From: Oscillospiraceae bacterium
Lineage (GTDB): Bacteria; Bacillota; Clostridia; Oscillospirales; WRJC01
NCBI GenBank assembly: GCA_009777355.1
Contig: WRMA01000001.1
Span: 28,505 to 92,504 of the forward strand
DNA: 64,000 nucleotides
Reading direction: 5' to 3'
In this document: piece after piece, positions 9,338 to 21,204 of the stretch
Numbering within the stretch: position 1 is the stretch's first letter
How the letters are laid out: every line of letters starts with the position of its first letter
Notes under the pieces: generated by a model
Database searches by the model: none
Seen by the model: the letters and a program-made list of their open reading frames with translations, nothing else
Told to the model about the DNA's origin: nothing
Program-made: the position numbers and the translations under genes

Positions 9338-9474
9338 GTTAAAAATCCTCCTTAATTTCTTGCATACTGAAATATTTCTGAAAGGCTTACCCGCCCTCTT
9401 ATTTATTCTATCGAAAAAATTTATGCAATCTTTAAGGACGTTGCTCTCACCCCGTGTGAGTATTTCGCGAAATT

Positions 9475-10425
9475 TTATGATTTAACCCGGTTCTGCTTTT
9501 CTGTAACCGACAGGATTGTCACGACTGCCGGAACCGCGGCGAGCGTTATAATAGTCTCCGGCAGCATATACTGGAGATTATATATTATAGAATAAACCCA
9601 CGCGCCGACCGTGTGAACGTATTCGTTCCAGCTCTGCGTCTTGGTTATTTCATACCAGACGGCAGCCCCCACGATGACGTGAGCCGCGTATCTTAAAACG
9701 CAGACCAGAAGAGTCGCCGCCGACGCAATCACTATTTTTTTACCCTTGCTTTCCGCTTTTTTAACAAAACTCTTAAAAAATCCCGCCGTTCCTATAAGAG
9801 TGTACGCGAGTACATAATCGATAAGACTGCTGACGATTATGAGATTACGGCTTATGCCCGCGATTCCCGCGACGCTTCCGAGTCCGTATAGAAGCAAATA
9901 CGCCGCCGAATAAACGAACGCGGTAGCGTATCCCCATAAAACGCCCCGTCTCAACCCGATTATAATAAGGGGAACCATGCTGAACAGAGTGACAGAACCC
10001 CCGAGAGGAGCTCTCCAAATTTTTGTGTAAAGAGATAAAACCACTGCGACCGAAACCATTACCGAACATTCTATTATAATTCTCAGATTCTCCTGAGAAT
10101 TACGCTTAACGGCATTTGATTTGATAAACATTAAAATCAAAACCGAACCCGCGATAAACATCGCAAGCGATATAATCATTACCGCAATCGTTGAGATTTC
10201 AACCGCCGAAAGAGGATGCCTGAATCTGATTCTCTGTAAATTCTCCCTTATAATCTCTTCGTTCGCCTCCCAAAATCCACCGGCTAAAAAATCCTCTCCC
10301 AGAAATCTGATTTCCGAACCCCAGTTCATAATTACAATCGCGCATACCGTTCCGATAATTCCGGAAATTAACATTATTAACCCAACCGCCAAATCTTTTT
10401 TGTTTTTCATAAAAAAACGCGCCAT
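9475..10425 (-). CDS. thiT: Thiamine transporter ThiT-like membrane protein (ECF S-component) with ~110-aa N-terminal 2-TM extension
   Basis: The C-terminal ~200 aa looks ThiT/YuaJ-like by recall. A TPP riboswitch lies directly upstream on the same strand. Confidence 0.7.
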   Translation of the reverse strand: MARFFMKNKKDLAVGLIMLISGIIGTVCAIVIMNWGSEIRFLGEDFLAGGFWEANEEIIRENLQRIRFRHPLSAVEISTIAVMIISLAMFIAGSVLILMFIKSNAVKRNSQENLRIIIECSVMVSVAVVLSLYTKIWRAPLGGSVTLFSMVPLIIIGLRRGVLWGYATAFVYSAAYLLLYGLGSVAGIAGISRNLIIVSSLIDYVLAYTLIGTAGFFKSFVKKAESKGKKIVIASAATLLVCVLRYAAHVIVGAAVWYEITKTQSWNEYVHTVGAWVYSIIYNLQYMLPETIITLAAVPAVVTILSVTEKQNRVKS

Positions 10426-10562
10426 CCTTTCTTAAATTTTTAAATTTAAATAAATATATAAAAACCGCGCAAATAATCCCGATTCAATCGCGCGGTTCGC
10501 ATACGTTAAGAACAGCGGAGCCGGCTTTTTTTTTCAAAAAAAGCGGCTGTCCAAAACATAAT

Positions 10563-10650
10563 CTTCCCTACGTTGGCATTACCCATATCAGGTTATAAGG
10601 GACAGCGGATTTTTACTTAAATCCGCATCTCAGCCCTGCGGCGCCCCCGA
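10563..10650 (-). promoter_or_regulatory. TPP (THI-box) riboswitch
   Basis: The minus strand reads GGGGCGCCGCAGGGCUGAGAUGCGG...CCGCUGUCCCUUAUAACCUGAUAUGGGUAAUGCCAACGUAGGGAAG. It contains the CUGAGA and ACCUGAU..GGNUAAUGCC..CGUAGGGAA cores. Confidence 0.9.
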
Positions 10651-10696
10651 CTATTTAATTGCGGTTATTATTTTTTATGAGTTTCAGCAAAGTTTC

Positions 10697-10840
10697 TTAT
10701 TTCTTCTCGAAAACCGTTTTGATACCGTCGCCTTCAAGCGTCAGTTTATTCCCGTCGAGAGTTCCTTTTACGGTTTCTCCGCCGCTTGTTATCTCTATAG
10801 ACTTACCGTTTATTTCAAAATTTTTTATATTTATACCACT
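10697..10840 (-). pseudogene. 47-codon C-terminal gene remnant (..NFEINGKSIEITSGGETVKGTLDGNKLTLEGDGIKTVFEKK*) lacking any ATG/GTG/TTG start
   Basis: My own translation. The open frame is bounded upstream by TAA at 10841-10843 and has no canonical start. Confidence 0.45.
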
Positions 10841-10847
10841 TTAATCA

Positions 10848-10876
10848 ATTATAGCAGTATATTACTCTTATGTCAA
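10848..10876 (-). promoter_or_regulatory. Consensus promoter TTGACA-N17-TATAAT firing toward the remnant, TPP riboswitch and thiT
   Basis: -35 at 10871-10876 and -10 at 10848-10853, read on the minus strand. Confidence 0.6.
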
Positions 10877-10916
10877 TATATTTTTAAGCGAACGCCATAA
10901 ATTTTTTTATTTTTGC

Positions 10917-10945
10917 TTGACAATAATAAACAATCGTGATATAAT
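10917..10945 (+). promoter_or_regulatory. Consensus promoter TTGACA-N17-TATAAT for candidate antisense RNA (copy L)
   Basis: -35 at 10917-10922 and -10 at 10940-10945. Confidence 0.6.
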
Positions 10946-10951
10946 TAAATA

Positions 10952-11086
10952 TGCAAATGAAAGAAAGAGCGGTGTAACGCTCTCTCAATCAGCCGCGCCG
11001 GCCGCTTAAGGCGGCAGGCTTTGCGTAGTTTAAGTTTTAATTAAACGCCGCTAGTCCTTGCTGGGAGGGCGGCGTTTACTTTTTAT
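10952..11086 (+). ncRNA. Candidate ~135-nt antisense sRNA (copy L), convergent with the small ORF
   Basis: Bounded by the promoter above and by hairpin 11043-11077 followed by ACTTTTTAT. An internal hairpin at 10966-10983 is preserved by a compensatory change relative to copy R. Confidence 0.45.
11043..11077. terminator. Shared (bidirectional) hairpin AAACGCCGC...GCGGCGTTT at the 3' end of the small ORF
   Basis: 9-bp stem with a T-run on the plus-strand side. It overlaps the last codons of the ORF. Confidence 0.55.
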
Positions 11087-11167
11087 CACATTTATTATAT
11101 ATTTTACCGGTTCAATAAAATCCGGAAGAAAATATATTACTAAAAATAATATTTCGCAAACATACAT
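11051..11167 (-). CDS. Small ORF, 38 aa MYVCEILFLVIYFLPDFIEPVKYIINVIKSKRRPPSKD (hydrophobic N-terminus, basic tail); candidate type I toxin-like peptide
   Basis: RBS GAAAGGAG lies 7 nt before the ATG. Compared with copy R it shows 2 synonymous and 1 conservative change. Confidence 0.5.
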   Translation of the reverse strand: MYVCEILFLVIYFLPDFIEPVKYIINVIKSKRRPPSKD

Positions 11168-11310
11168 GAGCTTCACTCCTTTCAGTTGGATTTTTGCGAA
11201 GAAATAATATTCTTCAACCCTCCTTTCGGAACGCAAAGCCATGCCGCCCTTAACGCTGCGACGCGACATATATATTTTCTCATACTTCGACAGTTTTGTC
11301 AAGCGCTTTT

Positions 11311-12891
11311 TTATTTTTTCTGAAACGCAATCACAAAAGGCGCTTCGGGTATGTTTATAAGACGGTGATACAGACAGTCAAAAATTTTCCTGTCGAGATT
11401 TTCCGCAAATTCAAAAATTTTTTCGCCCTCTCTCGTTCCTTCCGAGTGTCCGGGATAAACGCAGACTACTATAACTCCTCCGGCTTTTAATATTTCAAGC
11501 GCGCCTTTTAAGCATATGAGCGTCGACTCTGTCAGGGTCGTTATCGATTTGTCTCCCCCGGGAAGATAACCGAGATTGAAAACCGCTCCGTCAAGCTCTG
11601 TTTCTTCCGGCATATATTTTCTGAAATTTCCGTGAGAATCGCGTATCAAATATATATTTTCATCAAAACAATTCTCGCTTTCAAGCCTTTCTTTTGTCGC
11701 TTCGAGAGCTTTTTGCTGTATGTCAAACGCATAAATTTCAGCTTTCGGACATTTCTTTTTTATATAAAGCGTATCGTGACCGTTACCCATGGTAAAATCG
11801 GCGTAAACTCCGCCGCCCGCCTCAAGGCTTCGGTTAATCGCGACGTCGAGCAGACGCTTCGCAAAGCTTAAAATATTCGTCAGTGATTTTTGTTCCGCCC
11901 CCCTTGCAGAAAGAGGCTGATGCGTTTCTCCTGATTTTTCTAATTTTTTCCCCTGATACGTTCCGCGTTTTGCCAACTCTTTGTCTATATCGTTTATAAC
12001 GGAAAATTTTTTGCTTACCCATTCCGGGAGGGTTTTATCGGATTTATCCGATATTTCGGGGTCTCCCGTAAGGCGCATTATAACTATTTCCGGCGGCAGT
12101 TCTTCAAGCTGCGATACGACAATATCTATATATTCTTCTTTTGACGGTAAATTTATTTTTCCCGAATTATATAAATCGTAAATTTCAGTTCCCGGCTCTA
12201 TATAAAGCGCATGGATTTTTACGCCGAGCGGCAAAGGGTCGAGACTTGCGATATATTTCGCGGTTTCAAGCATCATTTCATAATTTTCACCCGGCAGACC
12301 GTTTATAATATGAATAATTACCGGTATTTTATACTCCGCCAAAATTTTATACGCCTCTTCGAAAACTTCGAGCTTATATCCCCGGTTTATAATACCGGCC
12401 GTTTTATCGTGAAAAGTCTGCAATCCGAGTTCAACCGCCGTATCGAGCCCGGTTCTCACGCCTAATTCGCTTAAATATCCCGCGGTTTCGCCGGTTATAC
12501 AGTCCGGACGGGTCGCCGTATATATCCCGGCAAGATTATCTGTATCCAGAACGCTTTCGTAAACTCTTTTCAGTTCGTCAAGCGAAGCGAAAGTATTTGA
12601 CCCCGCCTGAAAATACGCGATATATTTAGTGTCTCTCCATTTTTTTGAGAGCGCTTCTTTTTTTATATCAAACTGTTTTACTATTTCCCCGGGAGACAGC
12701 AAACCCCCGTTTATATCCCCCGTCCGCGTTTGTATACCCCGGCAGAAAATACAGCCCCTTCCGGTCCGTTTTATATGAGGACAGGAAAAACCGGCGTCAA
12801 GCGCGATTTTCGCCGTCTTAACGCCGTATCTGTTTGCTAAATAATAATCGTAAGCGTGATAACGCTTGTTGTTCGGATATATAAAATTAAT
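11311..12891 (-). CDS. Fusion of a TIGR01212/YtqA-type radical SAM protein with a YtqB-type (PF06962-like) SAM methyltransferase; probable ATT start
   Basis: The C-terminal half has GNGHDT...FNLGYLPGGDKSITT. The Cys-cluster region (FSCPHIKRTGRGCIFC) lies in-frame upstream of the first canonical start at 12702. GGAGGA sits 7 nt before ATT at 12891. Confidence 0.8.
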   Translation of the reverse strand: MNFIYPNNKRYHAYDYYLANRYGVKTAKIALDAGFSCPHIKRTGRGCIFCRGIQTRTGDINGGLLSPGEIVKQFDIKKEALSKKWRDTKYIAYFQAGSNTFASLDELKRVYESVLDTDNLAGIYTATRPDCITGETAGYLSELGVRTGLDTAVELGLQTFHDKTAGIINRGYKLEVFEEAYKILAEYKIPVIIHIINGLPGENYEMMLETAKYIASLDPLPLGVKIHALYIEPGTEIYDLYNSGKINLPSKEEYIDIVVSQLEELPPEIVIMRLTGDPEISDKSDKTLPEWVSKKFSVINDIDKELAKRGTYQGKKLEKSGETHQPLSARGAEQKSLTNILSFAKRLLDVAINRSLEAGGGVYADFTMGNGHDTLYIKKKCPKAEIYAFDIQQKALEATKERLESENCFDENIYLIRDSHGNFRKYMPEETELDGAVFNLGYLPGGDKSITTLTESTLICLKGALEILKAGGVIVVCVYPGHSEGTREGEKIFEFAENLDRKIFDCLYHRLINIPEAPFVIAFQKK

Positions 12892-13680
12892 TTACGCGTC
12901 CTCCGGGTTTCTCTTTGTTATCTCATCGTAGAAAGCGGCCGAAATGATTCCCAGGAAAAGCGGCAGCAGAAGAGCCGCGGCAATAGCAAATATAATCAAA
13001 ACGACCATAAAAATAATACCGGCAACCGGTATCAGCGACAGCAGAAAGAGGATAAGCGCCGTAAGTCCGACTGCGAGACAGATAATAAAATCAACGAGGA
13101 ACATTTTGCCTTTATGGCCGTTCGTCTGAACCATGGATTTTTTCAAAGCCTCCGTCGCGGGTATATCGGGTTCGCCCAGCATTATGTAGGGAACAAATCT
13201 GTAAGAATAAGACTTGATAACGGCGAAAACGAATCCGGCGAACGGAATAAGCCCCCAGATAAACACCCACAGACTCATCCATGCCATCCCTCCCGCGTTA
13301 CGGAAAAATTTACTGCTGAATCCTTCGAAAAGCTGCGCCGAGCTTACTTGTTTGCCGCGGTATCCTTTGAGATAAATCGACGTCATGCCGAGCGAAAGAA
13401 CGAGCGTCACCGCGATTCCCAACCCCGGTATTCCCAGAAACATAAAGCTTGCAAGCATCGCCAAAATAGAGTAGAGAAGCGAAAGCCCCCAAAGCAGCAG
13501 GGGTTTTTTCAGAAGAAACCTCGCCGATTTTGAGACGACGTCTCCGACCATACCCGTTTTTTCAAGACTCTGAGTAATATTCCGGGTCTGTTTCGCTTCG
13601 CCTCCGCCGAGACTGCTCCCGCAGTCGCTGCAGAACAGGCTGCCGTCGTTGTTCTGAACTCCGCATTTTGAACAAAACAT
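12892..13680 (-). CDS. Membrane protein with N-terminal zinc ribbon (CSKCG...CSDCG) and DUF975-like multi-TM domain
   Basis: 262 aa with an AGGAGG RBS. CxxC-x14-CxxC is followed by 5-6 TM segments. Confidence 0.8.
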   Translation of the reverse strand: MFCSKCGVQNNDGSLFCSDCGSSLGGGEAKQTRNITQSLEKTGMVGDVVSKSARFLLKKPLLLWGLSLLYSILAMLASFMFLGIPGLGIAVTLVLSLGMTSIYLKGYRGKQVSSAQLFEGFSSKFFRNAGGMAWMSLWVFIWGLIPFAGFVFAVIKSYSYRFVPYIMLGEPDIPATEALKKSMVQTNGHKGKMFLVDFIICLAVGLTALILFLLSLIPVAGIIFMVVLIIFAIAAALLLPLFLGIISAAFYDEITKRNPEDA

Positions 13681-13745
13681 GATAAATCCTCCTTAAAAAT
13701 AATAATATTTACGTTATTTTATTAATATATTTTAAAATTACTTAA

Positions 13746-13775
13746 ATTATAACATAATATTATTAAATTTGTCAA
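13746..13775 (-). promoter_or_regulatory. Promoter TTGACA-N18-TATAAT for the zinc-ribbon/radical-SAM gene pair
   Basis: Hexamers read on the minus strand, ~65 nt upstream of the start at 13680. Confidence 0.55.
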
Positions 13776-13928
13776 GCAGTTATAAAAAAACTCTTGACAA
13801 AAATGTCGAAATGCGCGAAAATATATATGTCGCGTCGCAGCGTTAAGGGCGGCATGGCTTTGCGTTCCGAAAGGAGGGTTGAAGAAAACTATTTCTTCGC
13901 AAAAATCCAACTGAAAGGAGTGAAGCTC

Positions 13929-14036
13929 ATGTATGTTTGCGAAATATTATTTTTAGTAATATATTTCCTGCCGGATTTTATTGAACCGGTAAAATATATA
14001 ATAAATCTGATAAAAAGTAAACGCCGCCCCCAATAG
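13929..14036 (+). CDS. Small ORF, 35 aa MYVCEILFLVIYFLPDFIEPVKYIINLIKSKRRPQ; candidate type I toxin-like peptide
   Basis: RBS GAAAGGAG lies 7 nt upstream. A TTGACA box at 13794-13799 precedes a ~100-nt leader. Confidence 0.5.
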   Translation: MYVCEILFLVIYFLPDFIEPVKYIINLIKSKRRPQ

Positions 14037-14164
14037 CAAAGGTTTGCGGCGTTTATAAATTATAATCTACGCAAAGCCTGCCGCCTTAAGCGGCCGGCGC
14101 GGCTGATTGAGAGAGTGTTAGCAGCACTCTTTCTTTCATTTCTGTCTGTCGGACAGACAGGCAC
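14010..14164 (-). ncRNA. Candidate ~155-nt antisense sRNA (copy R)
   Basis: Runs from the consensus promoter at 14171-14199 to the shared hairpin. It has a 5' hairpin CCTGTCTGTCCGACAGACAG and the hairpin AGAGTG/CACTCT. Confidence 0.45.
14019..14054. terminator. Shared hairpin AAACGCCGC...GCGGCGTTT overlapping the ORF stop
   Basis: 9-bp stem. The T-run (ACTTTTTAT) is on the minus-strand side, so it fits termination of the antisense RNA. A second hairpin at 14112-14130 followed by TTCTTTCATTTCT fits the plus-strand mRNA. Confidence 0.55.
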
Positions 14165-14170
14165 ACACTA

Positions 14171-14199
14171 ATTATATCACGATTGTTTACTAATGTCAA
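14171..14199 (-). promoter_or_regulatory. Consensus promoter TTGACA-N17-TATAAT for the antisense RNA (copy R)
   Basis: -35 at 14194-14199 and -10 at 14171-14176 on the minus strand. Confidence 0.6.
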
Positions 14200-14231
14200 G
14201 CGAATATAAAAAAATAGATATCTGCAAAATA

Positions 14232-16220
14232 TTACCTCGATATTTTATACGCCGCCGCCGTTCTTTTCTCCAATATAAAATCAGATTTTTCTTCAGAATC
14301 CCTCTCTTTTTTCCAACCGCCGAATCTTTCCCACGACGTGTCCAGTATTTTTTTATAATTTCCGAATAAATTTTTTGATTTTAAGACCTCTCCGAAATCA
14401 TAGCTTCCGGATACGCGGAAATTAAACAGAAACAACAGATTATCTTTTTTGAACGCAATAATTTTCTCTTCCTCGCCTATATATAAACTCTCCGAATTAT
14501 ATTTTAATATATTATTTTTCCCCGCAAGCTTTATTAACGCTTCATCGAAATTCTGTAAATATTTATATTTTAAATCCTGATTATCAGCAAGACTCCAGAG
14601 TCTTCTCGCATAATGATAACTGTCGTTATTTTCCGGTCTGGGAAAGTCTATCCATTCGGGGTGTCCGAACTCGTTGCCCATAAAATTTAAATAGCCTTCA
14701 CCCGCGCACATACACGTTATCAGTCTTATTAATTTATGCAGGGAAACCGCCCGTTCTACAACTAAACTATCAGAATCCTCATGCATATTCCAGTACATTT
14801 CTTTGTCCGCGAGCCAGAACATAATAGTCTTATCCCCGACGAGAGCCTGGTCGTGCGATTCGCAGTAGCCTATGACTTTTTCTTTCGGACGTCTCTGCGT
14901 CAGTTCCCAGAATATATGCCCCATATGCCAGTCCTCGTCCTGTTTAGTCCTGAGATTTTTAACCCAGAAATCGGGCGTTCCCATACCCAGCCTGTAATCG
15001 AACCCCAAACCTCCCCATTTTACCGGCAGGCACATTCCCGGCATACCGCTCATATCTTCGGCAATTAATATGCAGTCCGGCTTAATTTCTTTGCACAAAT
15101 CAGACGCGAGCTGCAAGTAAGCGACGGACTCCAAATCTGTATTCGGCGAAAAATACTTATTATAATTATCAAAAGATTCCCCCAGACCGTGGTCATGATA
15201 CAGCATAGAAGTTACCCCGTCGAATCTGAACCCGTCGAATTTATATTCCTCAAGCCAGAATTTTAAATTGGACAAAAGAAAATGCAGAACCTCGCCTTTG
15301 CCGTAATCAAACAATCTCGTTCCCCACGTGGGGTGCGAGCCTCTTTCTCCCGCATGAAAATACTGATACTCCGTTCCGTCGAATTTCGCTAACCCTTCGT
15401 CGGCGTTCGGCGCGGCGTGCGAGTGAACCAAATCGAGCAGGACGGCGATTCCCATTTCGTGAGCCGTATCTATCAGCCGTTTTAATTCTTCGGGCGTTCC
15501 GAATCTCGACGAAACTGCGAAAAAATTAGATACCTGATAACCGAACGACCCGTAATACGGATGCTCTGCGATTGCCATAAGCTGAATCGTGTTATACCCC
15601 AGTTTCTTCACCCTCGGCAGAACAATATTTATATAGTCTGCAAATCCCGATACTTTTTCTTCTTCTCCGCACATTCCGACATGACTCTCATAAATCAGCG
15701 GCGTTTTGATTTTTTTTATGTCAAAATTTTCAACCCGCCATTTATATTTACTGTCCCAGACCTGACCGTAAAACTCGAAAGTCTCGGGATTCTGCTCAAC
15801 TCTTCTGCAATACGCCGGGATTCTGTCGAAGATTTCCCCGTTTGCCTTTATTCTTATTTTAATTTTTGATTCGTGAGGCAGGGAATTGATTCCCGGTATA
15901 AAAATCTCCCAAACCCCCGGGATTTGCGATTCGGACGGCTTTAATTTATGCGATTTGTCATTCCAGCCGTTAAACTCGCCGATAAGAGAAATCTCTTCGG
16001 CGTTCGGAGCCCATTCCCTATAATACCAGCCGTTATTTTTCTTTGATTTATGAAACCCGAAATATAAATGCCCGTTCGCGAAATCCGACAAACTTTTTGT
16101 ATTATTCAAAAGCTTTTTTTTAAGCTTCGCGTAATTTTTCATGCGCAGCTCTATATCGCCGCCGTAATCGTTCAGATATTTATCAATCTCAAGTATTTTA
16201 TATTTATATTTTTTACCCAT
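14232..16220 (-). CDS. glgB: 1,4-alpha-glucan branching enzyme (GH13)
   Basis: 662 aa with GH13 catalytic regions DLVHSHAA, GFRFDGVTSM and IAEDMSG, plus an N-terminal CBM48-like region. Confidence 0.9.
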   Translation of the reverse strand: MGKKYKYKILEIDKYLNDYGGDIELRMKNYAKLKKKLLNNTKSLSDFANGHLYFGFHKSKKNNGWYYREWAPNAEEISLIGEFNGWNDKSHKLKPSESQIPGVWEIFIPGINSLPHESKIKIRIKANGEIFDRIPAYCRRVEQNPETFEFYGQVWDSKYKWRVENFDIKKIKTPLIYESHVGMCGEEEKVSGFADYINIVLPRVKKLGYNTIQLMAIAEHPYYGSFGYQVSNFFAVSSRFGTPEELKRLIDTAHEMGIAVLLDLVHSHAAPNADEGLAKFDGTEYQYFHAGERGSHPTWGTRLFDYGKGEVLHFLLSNLKFWLEEYKFDGFRFDGVTSMLYHDHGLGESFDNYNKYFSPNTDLESVAYLQLASDLCKEIKPDCILIAEDMSGMPGMCLPVKWGGLGFDYRLGMGTPDFWVKNLRTKQDEDWHMGHIFWELTQRRPKEKVIGYCESHDQALVGDKTIMFWLADKEMYWNMHEDSDSLVVERAVSLHKLIRLITCMCAGEGYLNFMGNEFGHPEWIDFPRPENNDSYHYARRLWSLADNQDLKYKYLQNFDEALIKLAGKNNILKYNSESLYIGEEEKIIAFKKDNLLFLFNFRVSGSYDFGEVLKSKNLFGNYKKILDTSWERFGGWKKERDSEEKSDFILEKRTAAAYKISR

Positions 16221-16258
16221 TCTGTTTAGTTTCCCCTTTTTTTATCGTTTCTTTTTTG

Positions 16259-16292
16259 CTTACTTTTTTCTTTTCGTAAAGAAAAAAGTAAG
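16259..16292. repeat. AT-rich palindrome CTTACTTTTTTCTTT-TCGT-AAAGAAAAAAGTAAG
   Basis: 15-bp arms. Same family as 2085-2116. It lies between the chrA-like stop and the glgB start. Confidence 0.8.
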
Positions 16293-16293
16293 T

Positions 16294-16896
16294 TTACGCC
16301 CTCCATATAAGCCCGATTAAAGCTCCCGCAAGAATTATAATTGCCGGACTTAAATTAAAATATATGCTGAAAAAACACGCCAGACCCGCGACCGCGACGT
16401 ATATTATCGGGTCAATGCCGAATATTATAACGGTATAATTCCACGCGAGCATACAGATTAATCCCGCCGACAGTAGATTTATATACTTAACAGAATACTT
16501 AAACAATATATTTTTATATAGTTTCTCTCCGGTTTTTAATATAGCCGCGATAATCAGGACAGACGGGGTCATATATGCGATAACTCCCAGAATCCCGCCT
16601 AAAATCCCGAGATTCGTGTATGTTCCGAGATACGCCGCGAGCGTCATTCCCTGCGCGTAACCGCCGATTTGGGATATCGTCGCGACGTTTAGAATCTGTA
16701 TTTCCATTTGCTCAAACCTGAAGATAATCTCTTCGGATTTTATAATCTCCGGATTAGCGTCTATAACCGTATAAAATTTATCTATCCAGCCCCGGGCGAA
16801 CTCTTTCATAATATTGATTCCGCCGATACCTCCGCCGAAACTGCCGACTCCCGCGAGAAGCATTGCGAGTATGTATTCAAAAAAATTAACTATCAT
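16294..16896 (-). CDS. Chromate transporter family protein (second half-size subunit)
   Basis: 200-aa polytopic protein, 4 nt downstream of a paralogous half-size gene. Confidence 0.75.
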   Translation of the reverse strand: MIVNFFEYILAMLLAGVGSFGGGIGGINIMKEFARGWIDKFYTVIDANPEIIKSEEIIFRFEQMEIQILNVATISQIGGYAQGMTLAAYLGTYTNLGILGGILGVIAYMTPSVLIIAAILKTGEKLYKNILFKYSVKYINLLSAGLICMLAWNYTVIIFGIDPIIYVAVAGLACFFSIYFNLSPAIIILAGALIGLIWRA

Positions 16897-16900
16897 AATT

Positions 16901-17662
16901 TTACTCCTCGCCTCTGTATTTTCTCTTTTTCGCAGCCTCTTCCTCGAGCTGTTGCCTGCGTTTCTTTATCGTGTCGTCGTCTATATATTTTCTCAGCGCG
17001 TATTCTTCTTCCCTCAACTGACGCTCTCTTAATTTTTTGCCTTTTCTGCTGTACGGGTCTATATATTTTTTACTCGGGTTCTTCTCCCTGTATTCCAGTA
17101 ATTTTACGTGGATAATCCCGAATATTACCCCGAATATAACTACAGCGATAATATAAAACGGCATTAATATATGATTCCCGATTCCCGTAATATCGCTTAA
17201 AAAAATAAATATAAACGCGGACGGGATTATTACTGACAAAGACTTCGCGCCGGTTTTGTTAAAATAAACTATTTTAATCAAATGAGCGATAATTAAACCC
17301 AGAGCCGCCGCGTGCATACCCCTGACGGCCGAGTTTACAAAACTCCCCGCTCCTGAATAAAACAGATTATTATATACAAAATATAAAGCCGCGGCCGCGG
17401 CAATCACCGGGATAAACAACGCCGCGACAGAAACGCAAACCCCAATCGTTCCGTTTATTTTACCGCCGACGTACGCCGCGTATTTTATTCCCGCAGGTCC
17501 GGGAGTATCTCTCAAAAGCTGCTCTTTTTCGTCGAAATCTTCGGCCGGGAAATATTCGGGGCAGAATTTTGCCTTTATATAATCGTGCATATTATATTCG
17601 TCGCGGGGTTTAATCAGCCCGAATTTTAAAAACCAGACAAAAAGCATAAGATTTTTATTCAT
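16901..17662 (-). CDS. Chromate transporter family protein (first half-size subunit) with charged C-terminal tail
   Basis: Start reassigned to MNKNLMLF (RBS GGAGAAG). The longer ORF-track version would run through a plus-strand promoter. Confidence 0.75.
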   Translation of the reverse strand: MNKNLMLFVWFLKFGLIKPRDEYNMHDYIKAKFCPEYFPAEDFDEKEQLLRDTPGPAGIKYAAYVGGKINGTIGVCVSVAALFIPVIAAAAALYFVYNNLFYSGAGSFVNSAVRGMHAAALGLIIAHLIKIVYFNKTGAKSLSVIIPSAFIFIFLSDITGIGNHILMPFYIIAVVIFGVIFGIIHVKLLEYREKNPSKKYIDPYSRKGKKLRERQLREEEYALRKYIDDDTIKKRRQQLEEEAAKKRKYRGEE

Positions 17663-17706
17663 GAAAAATACTTCTCCGTTTTTTTGAAATTTAAAATAAA
17701 AAAATC

Positions 17707-17735
17707 TTGACATTAATAAATTAATATGATATAAT
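17707..17735 (+). promoter_or_regulatory. Consensus promoter TTGACA-N17-TATAAT for the candidate antisense RNA of the third module
   Basis: -35 at 17707-17712 and -10 at 17730-17735. Confidence 0.6.
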
Positions 17736-17741
17736 GGCAGC

Positions 17742-17865
17742 AAGGGAAACTGCGCGCTGATAACGCGCAAATCTCCCCTGAACCGCAAAGCGGCTTGGTA
17801 TTAGATTATTATTAAAATAAATTAACCGTAATCCAATTACCGGACTGGGGCGGTTAATTTACGTC
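17742..17865 (+). ncRNA. Candidate ~120-nt antisense sRNA (module 3)
   Basis: 5' hairpin GGGAAACTGCGCG..CGCGCAAATCTCCC, small hairpin CCGCAAAGCGG, an AU-rich tract, and terminator hairpin 17822-17857. Confidence 0.45.
17822..17857. terminator. Shared hairpin TTAACCG...CGGTTAA overlapping the stop codon of the 27-aa ORF
   Basis: 7-bp stem. On the minus-strand side it is followed by TTTATTTTAATAATAAT. Confidence 0.55.
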
Positions 17866-17937
17866 TATAGAAAATAATATCATAAGTATTAATACAATAA
17901 TAATTATTATTATCCATTTCAGTATCTTATTTTTCAT
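17854..17937 (-). CDS. Small ORF, 27 aa MKNKILKWIIIIIIVLILMILFSIDVN (single TM); candidate type I toxin-like peptide
   Basis: My own translation. SD GGGGG lies 8 nt before the ATG and is paired in the hairpin CCUCC-GAAA-GGGGG. Confidence 0.5.
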   Translation of the reverse strand: MKNKILKWIIIIIIVLILMILFSIDVN

Positions 17938-17992
17938 TGATTCACCCCCTTTCGGAGGAAAACCAAGCCGCCTCACAGTTTCTGCCGACTTT

Positions 17993-18021
17993 ATTATACA
18001 CTATGTTAAATAATTTGTCAA
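17993..18021 (-). promoter_or_regulatory. Consensus promoter TTGACA-N17-TATAAT for the 27-aa ORF mRNA
   Basis: -35 at 18016-18021 and -10 at 17993-17998 on the minus strand. Confidence 0.6.
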
Positions 18022-18056
18022 TATATGTTTTAGAGTATTTTTAAAACATATATTTT

Positions 18057-18941
18057 TTATTTAGCCCCAATCCATCTCGAAAAACCGCCGCACGGAAACG
18101 GAGTTTCCGTACTTTCAGAGAAAATCCCGATTTCGCCGCTTTCAACCGCTCCGCCTGAATTATTTTTGAATATCATCGACAGCATATATCCGACGCACGA
18201 CGGCGCGAGTCCCGCCGTATATAAATTCACGAGAACGAACAACGCCCTGTCCGACAGTAAATTTTTTATTAGTTTCAGTAAATTATATAAATCGTCCTCT
18301 ATTTTCCACGTCTCGCCGCCCGAACCCCTGCCGTACGACGGCGGGTCTAATATAACCCCGTCGTACTTTTTCCCCCGTCTGATTTCCCGAAGGACAAATT
18401 TAACGCAGTCGTCCGCGATATATCTTATATTCGCGTTTTCAAGTCCGGACAATCCTGCGTTTCGTTTCGCCGTATTTATAATATTTTTCTGCGCGTCGAC
18501 ATGGCAAACGTCCGCTCCCGCCCTTGCGCAGGCAAGCGTCGCTCCGCCCGTGTACGCAAAAAGATTGAGAATATTTAAATTCTGTTTATCATTTTCCCGA
18601 CTTCGCCGGATTATATCATGCATAAAATTCCAGTTCGCCGCCTGTTCGGGAAAAAGCCCGGTATGTTTAAATCCCATAGGCGAAATCTCAAAGCTTAAAT
18701 TTAAAGGCGTATATTCAACCGTCCATTTATCGGGGATTTTTGACTTAAAATCCCAGCTGCCTCCGCCTTTGTCCGAACGGGTATATACGGCGTCGGCTTT
18801 ACGCCATAAATCGCTGTTTTTTTCTGACCATATAGCCTGAGGGTCGGGTCTTATTAAAATATATTTTCCCCATCGTTCGAGTCTTTTGCCGTCCGAGACG
18901 TCGAGCAGCGCGTAATCTTCCCAGTTTTTTTCGTATATCAT
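18057..18941 (-). CDS. Class I SAM-dependent methyltransferase (RlmI/PF10672-like, no PUA domain)
   Basis: Start reassigned to MIYEKNWEDY. It has the motifs LNLFAYTGGATLA and VILDPPSYGRG. Confidence 0.8.
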   Translation of the reverse strand: MIYEKNWEDYALLDVSDGKRLERWGKYILIRPDPQAIWSEKNSDLWRKADAVYTRSDKGGGSWDFKSKIPDKWTVEYTPLNLSFEISPMGFKHTGLFPEQAANWNFMHDIIRRSRENDKQNLNILNLFAYTGGATLACARAGADVCHVDAQKNIINTAKRNAGLSGLENANIRYIADDCVKFVLREIRRGKKYDGVILDPPSYGRGSGGETWKIEDDLYNLLKLIKNLLSDRALFVLVNLYTAGLAPSCVGYMLSMIFKNNSGGAVESGEIGIFSESTETPFPCGGFSRWIGAK

Positions 18942-18998
18942 TTTTTTAAGCACCAGAATTACAGCTTTAAATAATTTAAAATTATTTTTAAATTTTCG

Positions 18999-19027
18999 TT
19001 GACAAACAATAAAATATGTGTTAAAAT
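18999..19027 (+). promoter_or_regulatory. Promoter TTGACA-N17-TAAAAT with a ~275-nt leader before the 68-aa ORF
   Basis: Hexamers read directly. It is divergent from the methyltransferase gene. Confidence 0.5.
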
Positions 19028-19308
19028 ACCTCAAAGAGAAATAATAAATGCGGGAAGCCCGTAAAGTGAAGCAAACACTTTGCGAAATGCGTCCGGTACA
19101 GTCCACCATACACATTGATTTTCTCGAATCCCGCGATTATATTATACATCAATTAAAGCATATAGTCAAGTGTATTTTTAGTCGCGTAATAAAAAATTTA
19201 GGGATAATTTTTTATTGATGTTTTTTCGCCGTGCGTGGGTTTATTTTCCATACCCGGCATTTATTATTTCTCGGAGTGTGTGAAGTAATAAAAAAAGGGG
19301 GGAATTAA

Positions 19309-19515
19309 ATGGCAAATGACGACTTAATGCAAGGACTACAGGTGCTTCGTAATAGAGGAAATTCTGGTGATGTAGATGCGATGAAACGATTAGTAATGAT
19401 TTTCACAGGCATTATGGAACAGGCAACAAACGCTCGTGATTATTCAGCCGCAATTTCCGCGCGAGACGAAGGACAATATTGGTTAGACAAGTTGGAAAAA
19501 GCAGGTATTCGTTGA
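19309..19515 (+). CDS. Small helical protein, 68 aa, weak Sel1/TPR-like pattern
   Basis: Strong RBS AAGGGGGG and a downstream rho-independent terminator. Codon choice looks atypical for the window. Confidence 0.5.
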   Translation: MANDDLMQGLQVLRNRGNSGDVDAMKRLVMIFTGIMEQATNARDYSAAISARDEGQYWLDKLEKAGIR

Positions 19516-19553
19516 GGCAGATGGCTACCATAAACGATTTATTAAACATAATC

Positions 19554-19579
19554 AGAGCGGCTAATTCGCCGCTCTTTTT
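19554..19579 (+). terminator. Rho-independent terminator AGAGCGG-CTAATTCG-CCGCTCT-TTTT
   Basis: 7-bp GC-rich stem followed by a T-run. Confidence 0.7.
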
Positions 19580-19619
19580 GTTATCACGGGTTACGCGCTT
19601 GATGTATTTACTATCCTTG

Positions 19620-19787
19620 CCCTCTTTCGTAAAGAGGGTGGCACGAAGTGACGGGTGTTTTCGTCTCCCCGTACGCAACATCAAATTTCAAATCCCCCTG
19701 CGGCTTCGCCGCTTTCCCTCTTTGTAAAAGGGGGCTTAAAACACCCGTCAGCCGCTTACGCGACTGCCACCCTCTTTAAAAAAGAGG
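19620..19787. repeat. Composite nested palindrome (arms CCCTCTTT..AAAGAGGGTGGCA..GACGGGTGTTTT / AAAACACCCGTC..TGCCACCCTCTTT..AAAGAGGG)
   Basis: ~45-bp imperfect inverted arms. Each arm contains its own CCCTCTTT-N4-6-AAAGAGGG hairpin, and a third such hairpin sits in the centre. Confidence 0.65.
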
Positions 19788-19827
19788 GCTTTGGCGTAAA
19801 TTTAAACAATGCGCGGAACTTGAATAT

Positions 19828-21204
19828 TTATATATCCCCCAACTTCTCCAGAATCACCCTCTCTATATCTCTTGCGTATTCTGTGATAACGTCTTGTTCT
19901 TCTCCCTCGAGCATGATTCTTACAAGCGGTTCCGTTCCCGACGCTCTCAATAATACCCGTCCGTTGCCGTTTAATAAATTCTCGGCGTTTTTTACGGCAT
20001 CTAAAACTTTTCCGTCCGTCATAATCTCTTTTTTCCTGTCGTTCGCGACTTTTACGTTAAGCGCAATTTGGGGATAAGATTTCATCGCGTTGAAAATCCC
20101 GCTCGCTTTTTGACTTGGGTCAAGAGATTTATATTTTCTCAGTACGCCCAAAATTAAAACCGCAGTCAACTGTCCGTCTCCCGTCGTCGCATAGTCTGAA
20201 ACTATTATATGCCCCGACTGCTCCCCGCCTATATTCATGCCTTTTTCAAGCATACGCTCCAGAACGTATCTGTCGCCGACGTCAGTCTGTTCAACGTTTA
20301 TATTTTTATTTTCGCAGAACTTATGCAGTCCCATATTCGATAATTTAGTCACGACGACAGAATTATTTTTTAATAGTCCGCTTTTTTTCATATCTTCTGC
20401 GAGAATACAGATTATTTTATCGCCGTCTATGATTTCGCCCGTTTCATCAACAGCCAGGCATCTGTCCGCGTCGCCGTCAAAGGCGAATCCTATGTCGTAA
20501 TCCCCCATTTTCATGCGTTTTATAAGTCCGTCCATATGAGTAGAACCGCAGTTATCGTTTATATTTATACCGTTCGGTTCTGCATTTATTATACTGTAAG
20601 AAACTTTCTCTCCCCCGAATATTTTTTCAGCCGTAGCCGAAGCCGAACCGTTTGAACAGTCCGCCAGAACTTTTAAATTATATCTCGAATCTATAATTTT
20701 ATTTACGCCGGATATATTATCTATATATTTTTCGGTGAGTTTTTCGTCTCTTGTTACCCTGCCGATAAATCCGCCTGTTTTCAGCTCTATTTCCGTATAA
20801 TTATCTATGGCGTTCTCTATTTCATCTTCAAGTTCGTCGGGGATTTTATATCCCTGCGGACCGAATATTTTTATGCCGTTGTCATAAGCCTGATTATGCG
20901 ACGCGGAAATCATAACTCCCGCGGCAAAACCGCAGTCTTTGACTAAAAACGCGACAGCCGGAGTGGGAACTACCCCGCATAAAACGACGTCGCACCCTCC
21001 CGCGCATATCCCCGAAGCAATGGCGGCCTCGAACATATCTCCCGATATACGGGTGTCTTTGCCGATTAAAATCCTCGGCTTTTTATTATTTATGTTTCTT
21101 GTTAAGATATTTGAAGCCGAGAGACCTATTTTATAAGCGAGTTCAACGCTCAAATCTTTATTCGCCGTTCCTCTGACTCCGTCCGTACCGAAATATTTAC
21201 CCAT
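19828..21204 (-). CDS. glmM: Phosphoglucosamine mutase
   Basis: 458 aa with MGKYFGTDGVRG, active-site SASHN, and DGDADR. Confidence 0.95.
   Translation of the reverse strand: MGKYFGTDGVRGTANKDLSVELAYKIGLSASNILTRNINNKKPRILIGKDTRISGDMFEAAIASGICAGGCDVVLCGVVPTPAVAFLVKDCGFAAGVMISASHNQAYDNGIKIFGPQGYKIPDELEDEIENAIDNYTEIELKTGGFIGRVTRDEKLTEKYIDNISGVNKIIDSRYNLKVLADCSNGSASATAEKIFGGEKVSYSIINAEPNGININDNCGSTHMDGLIKRMKMGDYDIGFAFDGDADRCLAVDETGEIIDGDKIICILAEDMKKSGLLKNNSVVVTKLSNMGLHKFCENKNINVEQTDVGDRYVLERMLEKGMNIGGEQSGHIIVSDYATTGDGQLTAVLILGVLRKYKSLDPSQKASGIFNAMKSYPQIALNVKVANDRKKEIMTDGKVLDAVKNAENLLNGNGRVLLRASGTEPLVRIMLEGEEQDVITEYARDIERVILEKLGDI

What the first reader, a model, noticed from the sequence alone, without database searches (positions are those of the whole stretch)
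17700..18025. Third, diverged member of the same family next to the chromate-transporter genes: 27-aa TM peptide with sequestered SD plus convergent sRNA
**Minus strand:**
- A perfect TTGACA-N17-TATAAT promoter lies at 18021-17993.
- The leader is GGCAGAAACUGUGAGGCGGCUUGGUUUUCCUCCGAAAGGGGGUGAAUCA-AUG.
- The ORF encodes MKNKILKWIIIIIIVLILMILFSIDVN (17937-17854).
- The SD GGGGG is paired with CCUCC across a GAAA loop.

**Plus strand:**
- A second perfect promoter (17707-17735) is convergent and would give a ~120-nt RNA.
- That RNA ends at hairpin 17822-17857, which contains the ORF stop codon.

**Homology to the 10.9/13.9-kb copies, seen by eye:**
- Leader: GGCGGC[A/U]UGG[C/U]UUU...[U/C]UCCGAAAGG[A/G]GG
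- Antisense RNA: small hairpin ending in GCGGC, then UAGAUUAU[A/U]AUU..AUAAA before the terminator

The peptide itself is unrelated to the other two. Its ATG sits where those copies retain only an orphan SD. This suggests a modular RNA scaffold carrying different small ORFs.
Basis: partly seen in the sequence, partly recalled or inferred. Interest (0 to 1): 0.7.

Follow-up and report, generated by a model that had tools for sequence, protein, structure and literature searches.

The report
bsrG/SR4-like type I toxin-antitoxin module
This 330-base intergenic stretch most likely carries a small membrane-peptide "toxin" gene and a convergent antisense RNA that silences it, built like the known bsrG/SR4 system of Bacillus subtilis, so it is a new member of a known kind and not a new type of element.

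Summary

Two things were missed:
- The 5' end of the minus-strand RNA pairs over 19 bp with a segment beyond that hairpin (helix P1). A second hairpin follows directly. The mRNA is therefore probably about 245 nt, and the antisense RNA covers its whole 3' part.
- This layout, P1 enclosing SL1 (SD), SL2 and SL3 (stop), then SL4, is that of bsrG mRNA. Rfam's BsrG model matches copies A, B and C end to end and nothing else in 11 kb. The scores of 19.5-24.8 bits are far below the 55-bit gathering score.

Leader similarity to A/B is significant. Antisense-RNA sequence similarity is not. A motif scan of metagenomes found 17 loci with the same leader, a start codon placed as in C, convergent promoters, and unrelated peptides.

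Proposed mechanism, by analogy and by folding only: antisense binding opens P1, the SD stem lengthens, and the duplex is degraded. No transcript or toxicity data exist. Read-through into chrA is not excluded.

Source: an Oscillospiraceae metagenome-assembled genome (MAG).

The parts
17993..18021 (-). Promoter of the peptide mRNA (TTGACA-N17-TATAAT, 12/12)
17938..17986 (-). 5' untranslated leader. The transcription start is inferred at about 17986, 7 nt after the -10 box.
   Evidence: The Rfam BsrG model match starts at 17988.
17962..17980 (-). 5' strand of long-range helix P1 (AACUGUGAGGCGGCUUGGU)
   Evidence: 19 bp, duplex -35 kcal/mol, 0 of 500 shuffles as good
17945..17958 (-). SL1: CCUCC-GAAA-GGGGG hairpin whose 3' arm (17949-17945) is the Shine-Dalgarno sequence
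17854..17937 (-). 27-aa ORF MKNKILKWIIIIIIVLILMILFSIDVN, the putative membrane toxin, including the stop codon
   Evidence: No homologue found.
17817..17862 (.). SL3 of the mRNA, and the terminator hairpin of the antisense RNA on the other strand. The stop codon lies in its 5' arm. On the minus strand it is followed by UUUAUUUU.
17781..17799 (-). 3' strand of helix P1 (ACCAAGCCGCUUUGCGGUU). Its complement gives the antisense RNA a same-sense copy of the mRNA 5' end (GCGGCUUGGU).
17742..17779 (-). SL4: second hairpin directly after P1, the likely but weak terminator of the mRNA (inner stem 17770-17750, tail UUUCCCUUGC)
17707..17735 (+). Promoter of the antisense RNA (TTGACA-N17-TATAAT, 12/12, with TG extended -10)
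17742..17865 (+). Putative antitoxin antisense RNA, about 120-125 nt: 5' hairpin, small CCGC-AAA-GCGG hairpin, AU-rich spacer, terminal hairpin. The 3' end is uncertain because there is no U-tract.

Best explanation
Locus C is a chromosomal type I toxin-antitoxin module built like bsrG/SR4 of Bacillus subtilis prophage SPbeta.

**Shown by the sequence and by folding**
- A consensus promoter at 18021-17993 would give a minus-strand RNA of about 245 nt.
- Its 5' end (17980-17962) pairs with 17799-17781 to form helix P1.
- P1 encloses three stem-loops. SL1 locks the SD sequence GGGGG in a 5-bp GC stem. SL2 is the body of the 27-aa hydrophobic ORF. SL3 carries the stop codon.
- P1 is followed directly by hairpin SL4.
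- A convergent consensus promoter at 17707-17735 would give an antisense RNA of about 120 nt. That RNA is complementary to SL4, to the 3' strand of P1, to the spacer and to SL3.

**Inferred by analogy with bsrG/SR4 and from constrained folds**
- The antisense RNA first contacts the SL3 loop with its own terminal loop, then zips along the 3' part of the mRNA.
- This displaces the 5' strand of P1. The freed UUGGUUU then pairs with GAAUCAA just upstream of the AUG.
- The SD stem lengthens from 5 bp (plus 2 flanking pairs) to 12 bp, which blocks ribosome binding.
- The long RNA duplex is a substrate for RNase III.
- If the antisense RNA is lost, the peptide is made, inserts into the membrane and harms the cell.
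For: **Promoters and ORF**
- Both promoters are perfect and are the only such convergent pair in the window.
- The ORF has an SD 7 nt upstream of the ATG and a 17-residue uncharged core.

**Helix P1**
- P1 in C is 19 bp. The full-length fold has z = -6.8, and the duplex is -35 kcal/mol, matched by 0 of 500 shuffles.
- P1 is also present in A and B (-56.7 kcal/mol, 0 of 500). It is present in four metagenome modules whose strands differ in sequence but stay complementary.

**Comparison with bsrG**
- The probed structure of bsrG mRNA is P1 (nt 1-35 with 232-262), SL1 with the SD in a 4-bp stem, the start codon at SL2, the stop codon in SL3, and terminator SL4 right after P1.
- SR4 binding frees the 5' strand and extends the SD stem from 4 to 8 bp. 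It also triggers RNase III decay (PMC3834814).
- The minimum-free-energy (MFE) folds of SPbeta bsrG and of C have the same abstract shape, []. The AUG and the stop codon sit in the same places.
- The Rfam BsrG model aligns end to end (positions 1-259) with C at 17749-17988 on the minus strand (19.5 bits, E = 0.01 in 331 nt). It aligns likewise with A (21.7 bits) and B (24.8 bits). It hits nothing else in 11 kb on either strand.

**Mechanism**
- With the antisense-bound region blocked, the mean probability that SD..AUG is unpaired falls from 0.46 to 0.21 in C, from 0.51 to 0.14 in A, and from 0.48 to 0.14 in B.
- The antisense RNA has no special complementarity to the mRNA 5' region. Any effect on translation must therefore be indirect.

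**Independence from chrA**
- The module is absent upstream of chrA in relatives that keep the chrA-chrA-glgB order.
- Copies A and B, with the same scaffold, have no co-directional downstream gene.
Against: - No transcript, translation or toxicity data exist.
- The peptide has no homologue anywhere I could search. Selection on the ORF therefore cannot be shown.
- The BsrG model scores are far below Rfam's gathering score of 55 bits. The probabilities are modest, and A and B count as one observation.
- The antisense RNA lacks a good U-tract after its hairpin.
- SL4 on the mRNA strand is a weak terminator, and chrA has no promoter of its own scoring 9/12 or better. The minus-strand RNA may therefore continue into chrA.
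- SL3 is followed by UUUAUUUU on the mRNA strand. Part of the transcripts may stop there, lack the 3' strand of P1, and overlap the antisense RNA by only about 45 nt.
- In the metagenome modules the computed change in SD accessibility is small and goes both ways.
Confidence: 0.72

Rival explanations
1. The minus-strand RNA is mainly the regulated leader of the chrA-chrA-glgB operon. The small ORF would act as a leader peptide whose translation, with its stop codon inside the SL3 stem, decides whether transcription stops at SL3 or SL4 or reads on. The antisense RNA would modulate this. This reading can coexist with a toxin-antitoxin origin.
For: - No promoter scoring 9/12 or better lies between SL4 and the chrA ATG at 17662. 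The best candidates score 8/12 with poor -10 boxes.
- SL3 is followed by UUUAUUUU on the mRNA strand and contains the stop codon.
- SL4 has a weak U-tract.
- 11 of the 27 codons are Ile.
Against: - Relatives with the same chrA-chrA-glgB order have plain AT-rich intergenic DNA 23-268 bp long upstream of chrA, and no such element.
- Copies A and B have the same scaffold but no co-directional downstream gene.
- The 17 metagenome relatives sit in unrelated contexts.
- chrA is not an amino-acid biosynthesis gene.
Confidence: 0.15
2. It is a par/Fst-type or SprA1-type module, in which the antisense RNA acts by pairing directly with the 5' region of the mRNA (SD and start codon). The shared hairpin would serve only as the first contact.
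For: The transcripts converge on a shared bidirectional hairpin. A 10-14-nt motif (GCGGCUUGGU) is present near the 5' end of the mRNA and inside the antisense RNA.
Against: - The shared motif has the same sense in both RNAs, so it is not complementary.
- The best duplex between the antisense RNA and the mRNA 5' region is no better than shuffles. For C, z = +1.7 and 491 of 500 shuffles do as well. For A and B, z = -0.2 and -0.3.
- The motif is explained by helix P1.
Confidence: 0.04
3. It is a chance combination of promoter-like hexamers, a short ORF and hairpins in AT-rich intergenic DNA, or a decayed non-functional copy.
For: - The peptide has no homologue.
- The antisense-RNA similarity to A/B is not above chance.
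- The ORF is made largely of AT-rich Ile codons.
Against: - There are two 12/12 promoters in convergent orientation.
- P1 is matched by 0 of 500 shuffles.
- The leader alignment is matched by 0 of 1000 shuffles.
- The BsrG model hits only the three modules.
- The ATG lies at the position conserved in 17 metagenome relatives.
- The region is identical in a second assembly that differs at 16 other sites.
Confidence: 0.06

Closest known systems
[quoted passage not shown]
   Same: - The order of elements is the same: promoter, 5' strand of P1, SL1 with the SD as its 3' arm and GAAA in the loop, AUG, hydrophobic ORF, SL3 with the stop codon, 3' strand of P1, then SL4.
- The MFE shape is identical, [].
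- The antisense RNA is convergent, and its terminal hairpin is the complement of SL3.
- The predicted lengthening of the SD stem when the 3' part is occupied matches bsrG (compared).
- The Rfam model gives a global but weak match.
   Different: - The score is 19.5 bits. The gathering score is 55 bits, and the real bsrG scores 210 bits.
- The peptide is 27 aa rather than 38 aa and is unrelated in sequence.
- P1 is 19 bp rather than about 31-35 nt per strand.
- Here the antisense promoter abuts SL4, so the whole antisense RNA is complementary to the mRNA. In the SPbeta sequence the apparent SR4 promoter lies further downstream of the bsrG terminator, by my reading. Part of SR4 is reported as not complementary to bsrG.
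- The setting is chromosomal and non-prophage, in an Oscillospiraceae MAG (Clostridia).
Copies A (10905-11315) and B (13782-14215) of the same window, and a fourth copy D (P0002) in the same MAG
   Same: - The leader motif is shared: GGCGGC[A/U]UGG[C/U]UUU..UCCGAAAGG[A/G]GG..UGAA.
- P1, SL1, SL3, SL4 and a convergent 12/12 promoter are all present.
- All match the Rfam BsrG model.
   Different: - The peptide is unrelated.
- A/B carry a roughly 48-nt insertion or duplication, so the first SD-like hairpin is orphaned and the ATG lies 45 nt further on.
- P1 is about 32 pairs in A/B against 19 in C.
- The toxin promoter scores 10/12 in A/B against 12/12 in C.
- The antisense RNA sequence is not significantly similar.
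txpA/RatA and the other Gram-positive type I systems with a 3'-overlapping antisense RNA (BsrE, BsrH, YonT, SprG/SprF), and the Clostridioides difficile systems (CD2517.1-RCd8 and others)
   Same: [quoted passage not shown]
   Different: - There is no sequence similarity.
- RatA binding is reported not to change the txpA SD stem.
- The C. difficile toxins are 50-53 aa with Lys-rich tails.
hok/sok (fold-back inhibition) and aapA/IsoA of Gram-negative bacteria
   Same: A long-range 5'-3' pairing in the full-length toxin mRNA keeps it translationally inert. This comparison rests on my own knowledge of these systems.
   Different: In those systems the antisense RNA binds the 5' part of a 3'-processed mRNA. 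Here it is encoded opposite the 3' part, and it competes with the 5' strand for the same partner.

Membership tests
Type I toxin-antitoxin systems (general) | Small ORF (under about 60 aa) encoding a hydrophobic, membrane-type peptide | tested here: met
   27 aa, 17 uncharged residues in a row, GRAVY 1.9
Type I toxin-antitoxin systems (general) | Antisense RNA gene with its own promoter that overlaps or pairs with the toxin mRNA | tested here: met
   A 12/12 promoter at 17707-17735 converges on the ORF and shares hairpin 17817-17862. This is sequence evidence only. Expression was not tested.
Type I toxin-antitoxin systems (general) | The peptide is toxic on overexpression, and the RNA neutralises it | not testable with these tools
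   Needs expression experiments.
bsrG/SR4 (Rfam RF01412 BsrG) | Covariance-model score at or above the gathering score of 55 bits | tested here: not met
   C scores 19.5 bits, A 21.7 and B 24.8. The real bsrG scores 210.4 bits.
bsrG/SR4 (Rfam RF01412 BsrG) | mRNA architecture: P1 (5' end paired with 3' part) enclosing SL1 (SD), SL2 (start) and SL3 (stop), with terminator SL4 right after P1 | tested here: met
   compared with the probed structure in PMC3834814. The folds here are predictions.
bsrG/SR4 (Rfam RF01412 BsrG) | Toxin belongs to the TxpA/BsrG peptide family | tested here: not met
   No BLASTP alignment with BsrG at E <= 100. No Pfam or NCBIfam toxin family matched.
bsrG/SR4 (Rfam RF01412 BsrG) | Antitoxin binding to the 3' part lengthens the SD stem and triggers RNase III decay | tested here: inconclusive
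   Constrained folds predict that the SD stem grows from 5 bp (plus 2 flanking pairs) to 12 bp, and that P(unpaired) falls from 0.46 to 0.21. There are no experimental data.
Same RNA family as window copies A and B | Shared leader sequence beyond chance | tested here: met
   32-nt local alignment. 0 of 1000 shuffles reached it for the leader, and 2 of 1000 for the whole module. The motifs are confined to the three loci.
Same RNA family as window copies A and B | Same set and order of helices, and a convergent promoter | tested here: met
Same RNA family as window copies A and B | Homologous antisense RNA sequence | tested here: not met
   For the 3' part of C against that of B, 130 of 1000 shuffles score as well.
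Same RNA family as window copies A and B | Homologous peptide | tested here: not met
   No BLASTP alignment.
par/Fst-RNAII type | Antisense RNA complementary to the 5' region of the toxin mRNA (direct repeats) | tested here: not met
   The duplex energy is no better than shuffles. The shared motif has the same sense in both RNAs.
Leader-peptide transcription attenuator | Conserved position upstream of the regulated operon, with alternative terminator and antiterminator | tested here: not met
   The element is absent upstream of chrA in syntenic relatives. Copies with the same scaffold lack a downstream gene. Read-through itself could not be tested.

The most novel reading that the evidence does not exclude
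The GGCGGC...CCGAAAGGRGG-UGAA leader, with P1 and a convergent antisense promoter, may mark a large unannotated superfamily of bsrG-like RNA chassis in gut Clostridia. On this reading it is remotely homologous to Bacillus bsrG. It repeatedly exchanges its small ORF, which includes peptides that are not membrane-like at all (MRITFHVGKYT.., GRAVY -1.15). The chassis would then be a general antisense-controlled cassette for small proteins rather than only a membrane-toxin system. The leader motif would give a sequence handle for finding type I-like modules that protein searches miss.
Probability: 0.3. Interest if true: 0.6.

Novelty: new member of a known kind. Interest (0 to 1): 0.42.

Why it matters
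- **Hard to find by homology.** Type I toxin-antitoxin modules are difficult to detect this way. The review I checked does not mention Oscillospiraceae, Ruminococcaceae or Lachnospiraceae. Neither the ORF nor the RNAs of this locus are annotated or in Rfam.
- **Reach of the bsrG design.** If the reading is right, the bsrG/SR4 design extends well beyond Bacillus prophages. That design is a 5'-3' clamp that the antitoxin opens so that the SD stem tightens.
- **A practical search motif.** The conserved leader found relatives in 17 metagenome contigs, including ones labelled human gut.
- **Annotation of the chrA operon.** Its only consensus upstream promoter belongs to the module.

Tried and rejected
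1. **Strict-pattern scan of GTDB genomes** (GGCGGCNTGGNTTTN{1,6}TCCGAAAGG). It gave 4 hits, and the two I read lay inside GC-rich coding sequence. The pattern later proved too strict, so this says nothing about absence.
2. **Viral contigs.** The second pattern found 0 hits.
3. **Peptide searches.** The 40-aa extended ORF found no candidate in 5.8 billion protein clusters. The exact peptide is not in the collection. Pfam and NCBIfam gave nothing meaningful.
4. **blastn of the module.** The plasmid search gave only AT-rich chance hits, and the phage search gave none.
5. **DNA of the fourth copy.** The contigs encoding P0001 and P0002 are not on record, so copy D could not be read.
6. **Alignment of nine modules including bsrG.** MAFFT misaligns the P1 strands between groups. 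I therefore did not run RNAalifold, count pairs, or build a covariance model on it. No structure-aware aligner was available.
7. **Rfam on the metagenome relatives.** There were no matches at gathering score, and no BsrG match at E <= 5.
8. **par/Fst-like pairing at the 5' end.** Rejected.
9. **Conserved chrA leader.** Rejected from synteny.
10. **Ile leader-peptide attenuation.** Considered and judged unlikely.

Full report
**1. The observation**

All stated features are in the sequence.
- The minus strand carries TTGACA-N17-TATAAT at 18021-17993. The plus strand carries the same consensus at 17707-17735, with a TG extended -10.
- In the whole 64-kb window there are 12 perfect promoters of this kind. 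This is the only convergent pair scoring 11/12 or better with 150-500 nt between them.
- The leader reads GGCAGAAACUGUGAGGCGGCUUGGUUUUCCUCCGAAAGGGGGUGAAUCA-AUG.
- The ORF from ATG 17937 to the stop at 17856-17854 encodes MKNKILKWIIIIIIVLILMILFSIDVN. It has a run of 17 uncharged residues.
- CCUCC-GAAA-GGGGG forms in every predicted fold.
- The hairpin at 17817-17862 contains the stop codon.

**2. Relation to copies A and B**

A (10905-11315, mRNA on the minus strand) and B (13782-14215, mRNA on the plus strand) are a 92-95% inverted repeat.
- The two leader motifs occur only in the three loci. GGCGGCWTGGYTTT gave 9 matches against 1.8 expected. YTCCGAAAGGRGG gave 4 against 0.5.
- A local alignment of C with A gives a 32-nt block, GGCGGC.TGG.TTT..TCCGAAAGG.GGG.TGAA. 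None of 1000 dinucleotide shuffles reached it for the leader, and 2 of 1000 did for the whole module.
- The 3' part, which is the template of the antisense RNA, is not significantly similar: 130 of 1000 shuffles score as well.
- MAFFT aligns C's SD and ATG with the true SD and ATG of A/B. It also shows that A/B contain an internal duplication, GAAAGGAGGGTTGAAG ... GAAAGGAGTGAAG.
- The peptides are unrelated.

**3.

- When the minus-strand RNA is folded beyond the shared hairpin, its 5' end (17980-17962) pairs with 17799-17781 over 19 consecutive pairs. A second hairpin (17779-17742) follows directly. The fold has z = -6.8.
- The same holds in A and B, with about 32 pairs and z = -9.2 and -7.8.
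- As a bimolecular test, the 5' part against the 3' part gives -35.0 kcal/mol for C and -56.7 for A and B. None of 500 shuffles was as good in any case.
- This helix explains why the antisense RNA carries a same-sense copy of the mRNA 5' end, GCGGCUUGGU at 17790-17799. It is the complement of the 3' strand of the helix.
- The antisense RNA has no special complementarity to the mRNA 5' region. A par/Fst-like mode is therefore rejected.

**4. Identification**

- A permissive Rfam search of 17600-18100 gave one notable match. RF01412 BsrG aligned over model positions 1-259 with 17749-17988 on the minus strand, at 19.5 bits and E = 0.016. E was 0.01 when only 331 nt were searched.
- A gave 21.7 bits with E = 0.0036.
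- In 11 kb (9000-20000, both strands), the BsrG model hit only A, B (24.8 bits) and C, each on the mRNA strand.
- All three are far below the gathering score of 55 bits. The real bsrG of phage SPbeta scores 210 bits.
- Jahn and Brantl (PMC3834814) probed bsrG mRNA. Nucleotides 1-35 pair with 232-262 in helix P1. P1 encloses SL1 (SD in a 4-bp stem), SL2 (start codon) and SL3 (stop codon). Terminator SL4 follows P1 after one nucleotide.
- In the same study the SR4 terminator loop first contacts loop 3. In the complex the 5' strand of P1 is single-stranded and the SD stem grows from 4 to 8 bp, which blocks translation. RNase III degrades the duplex.
- The MFE folds of SPbeta bsrG and of C have the same abstract shape, []. 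In both, the AUG lies just after SL1 and the stop codon lies in the 5' arm of SL3.
- SL1 is also alike in sequence: bsrG has CCCCUAUGAAAGGGGUG and C has CCUCCGAAAGGGGGUG.

**5. Mechanism (inferred)**

- I blocked the region complementary to the antisense RNA and refolded. The mean probability that SD..AUG is unpaired falls from 0.46 to 0.21 in C, from 0.51 to 0.14 in A, and from 0.48 to 0.14 in B.
- The opening energy rises from 8.7 to 10.7, from 4.4 to 9.7, and from 5.5 to 9.1 kcal/mol.
- In C the freed UUGGUUU pairs with GAAUCAA next to the AUG. This lengthens the SD stem from 5 bp (plus 2 flanking pairs) to 12 bp.
- This mirrors the SR4 effect, but it is a prediction only.
- In the metagenome modules the computed change is small and goes both ways.

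**6. Relatives elsewhere**

- *Source.* The window comes from an NCBI MAG named Oscillospiraceae bacterium (locus tags FWH10_), on a 110,777-bp contig. A second assembly (ENA ERZ27257348) is identical across the locus. A fourth A-type copy exists on another contig of the MAG (P0002).
- *chrA relatives.* Relatives at 54-66% amino-acid identity keep the chrA-chrA-glgB order. Upstream of chrA they have plain intergenic DNA of 23-268 bp.
- *GTDB scan.* A strict motif scan of GTDB genomes gave 4 hits, and the two I read lay in coding sequence.
- *Metagenome scan.* A second pattern (GGCGGCN{8,14}TCCGAAAGGRGGN{0,2}TGAA) hit 32 contigs. Seventeen of them show the same kind of module. Wherever the contig extends far enough, these have:
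  - an ATG 2-5 nt after the TGAA (offset 3 in C, 45 in A/B);
  - a 25-37-aa ORF whose end overlaps a hairpin;
  - in most of them, a convergent promoter scoring 11-12/12, placed 152-209 nt downstream.
- *With and without P1.* Four of these modules (L023, L028, L033, L039) also have a significant P1 built from different sequence, matched by 0 of 500 shuffles each. The group from contigs labelled human gut (L016, L026) does not.
- *Peptides.* They are mutually unrelated, and some are not hydrophobic. Two of them are present in the protein collection, and the only name a source gives is "hypothetical protein".
- *Circularity.* The search pattern was derived from A and C, so sharing the motif is not independent evidence. 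The ORF position, the hairpin, the promoters and P1 are independent.

**7. Caveats and rivals**

- No promoter scoring 9/12 or better lies between SL4 and the chrA start, and SL4 has a weak U-tract. Read-through from the module into chrA is therefore possible.
- SL3 is followed by UUUAUUUU on the mRNA strand. A shorter RNA lacking the 3' strand of P1 may also be made, and in that form the SD stem is already long.
- The antisense RNA has no good U-tract.
- The peptide has no detectable homologue.
- Nothing here shows expression or toxicity.

**8. Verdict**

The finding is real. It is a new, sequence-divergent member of the Gram-positive type I toxin-antitoxin kind, with the bsrG/SR4 architecture. 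It does not qualify as a member of Rfam BsrG or of the BsrG peptide family. The wider leader-defined family in gut metagenomes is the most interesting lead.

Noticed in passing
window 10905-11315 and 13782-14215: Copies A and B form a 92-95% inverted repeat. They bracket two genes (11311-12702, a radical-SAM/rRNA-methylase fusion, and 12892-13680, a zinc-ribbon/DUF975 protein), rather like a composite element.
   Followed up: partly
window 10547-10658 (-), with promoter 10876-10848 (-): A TPP riboswitch (66.7 bits) lies upstream of a ThiT/YuaJ-type thiamine transporter gene (9475-10425). It is driven by its own perfect promoter, placed just downstream of copy A.
   Followed up: partly
window 17655-17790 (-): chrA (ATG at 17662) has no promoter of its own scoring 9/12 or better. 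The nearest consensus promoter on its strand is that of the small-ORF RNA at 18021.
   Followed up: partly
L039 4424-5034 (- strand of the locus): Two tandem copies of a related module (peptide MSINVTIRWRGYIFMFRVTRDNRHPAR) are present. I could not find a -10 box for the toxin promoter of the first copy, while the second has TTGACA-N17-TAAAAT.
   Followed up: partly
L014 about 170-500 and L034 (- strand) about 240-566: In two contigs the related module breaks off at its SL3 hairpin. It is followed by an ORF starting MSNKLSPEEKYEIVKRCISGELSQRHAAEMYNV..., possibly an insertion sequence landed in the module. I did not check this against Pfam.
   Followed up: no
L016 222-480, L026 (- strand) 1051-1315, also L015, L027, L037: A group of modules from contigs labelled human gut shares the SD-hairpin leader and a perfect convergent promoter. 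It lacks the long-range helix and has two local 5' hairpins instead. The peptides are MIELIIMLFVALRRDTKSITITVRKK and MLELIIALILALKHEIETITIIKFRHK.
   Followed up: partly
L001 43-224 = window 18274-18455: Thirteen of the 16 differences between the window and the ENA contig cluster within 182 bases at the contig end, inside the methyltransferase gene. Most are changes to A, which may be assembly-end errors.
   Followed up: no
window 19493-19586 (+): There are weak sub-threshold Rfam matches, L20_leader at 19.7 bits and STnc50 at 25.8 bits. They are probably chance.
   Followed up: no
P0002 (MAG contig of 23,676 bp, not retrievable): A fourth, A-type copy is present in the same genome, with peptide MYVCDLLFLIIYFLPDFIEPARYITMIIKSKRRPK. 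Its differences from A and B are mostly conservative, which hints at selection on the A-type peptide.
   Followed up: partly
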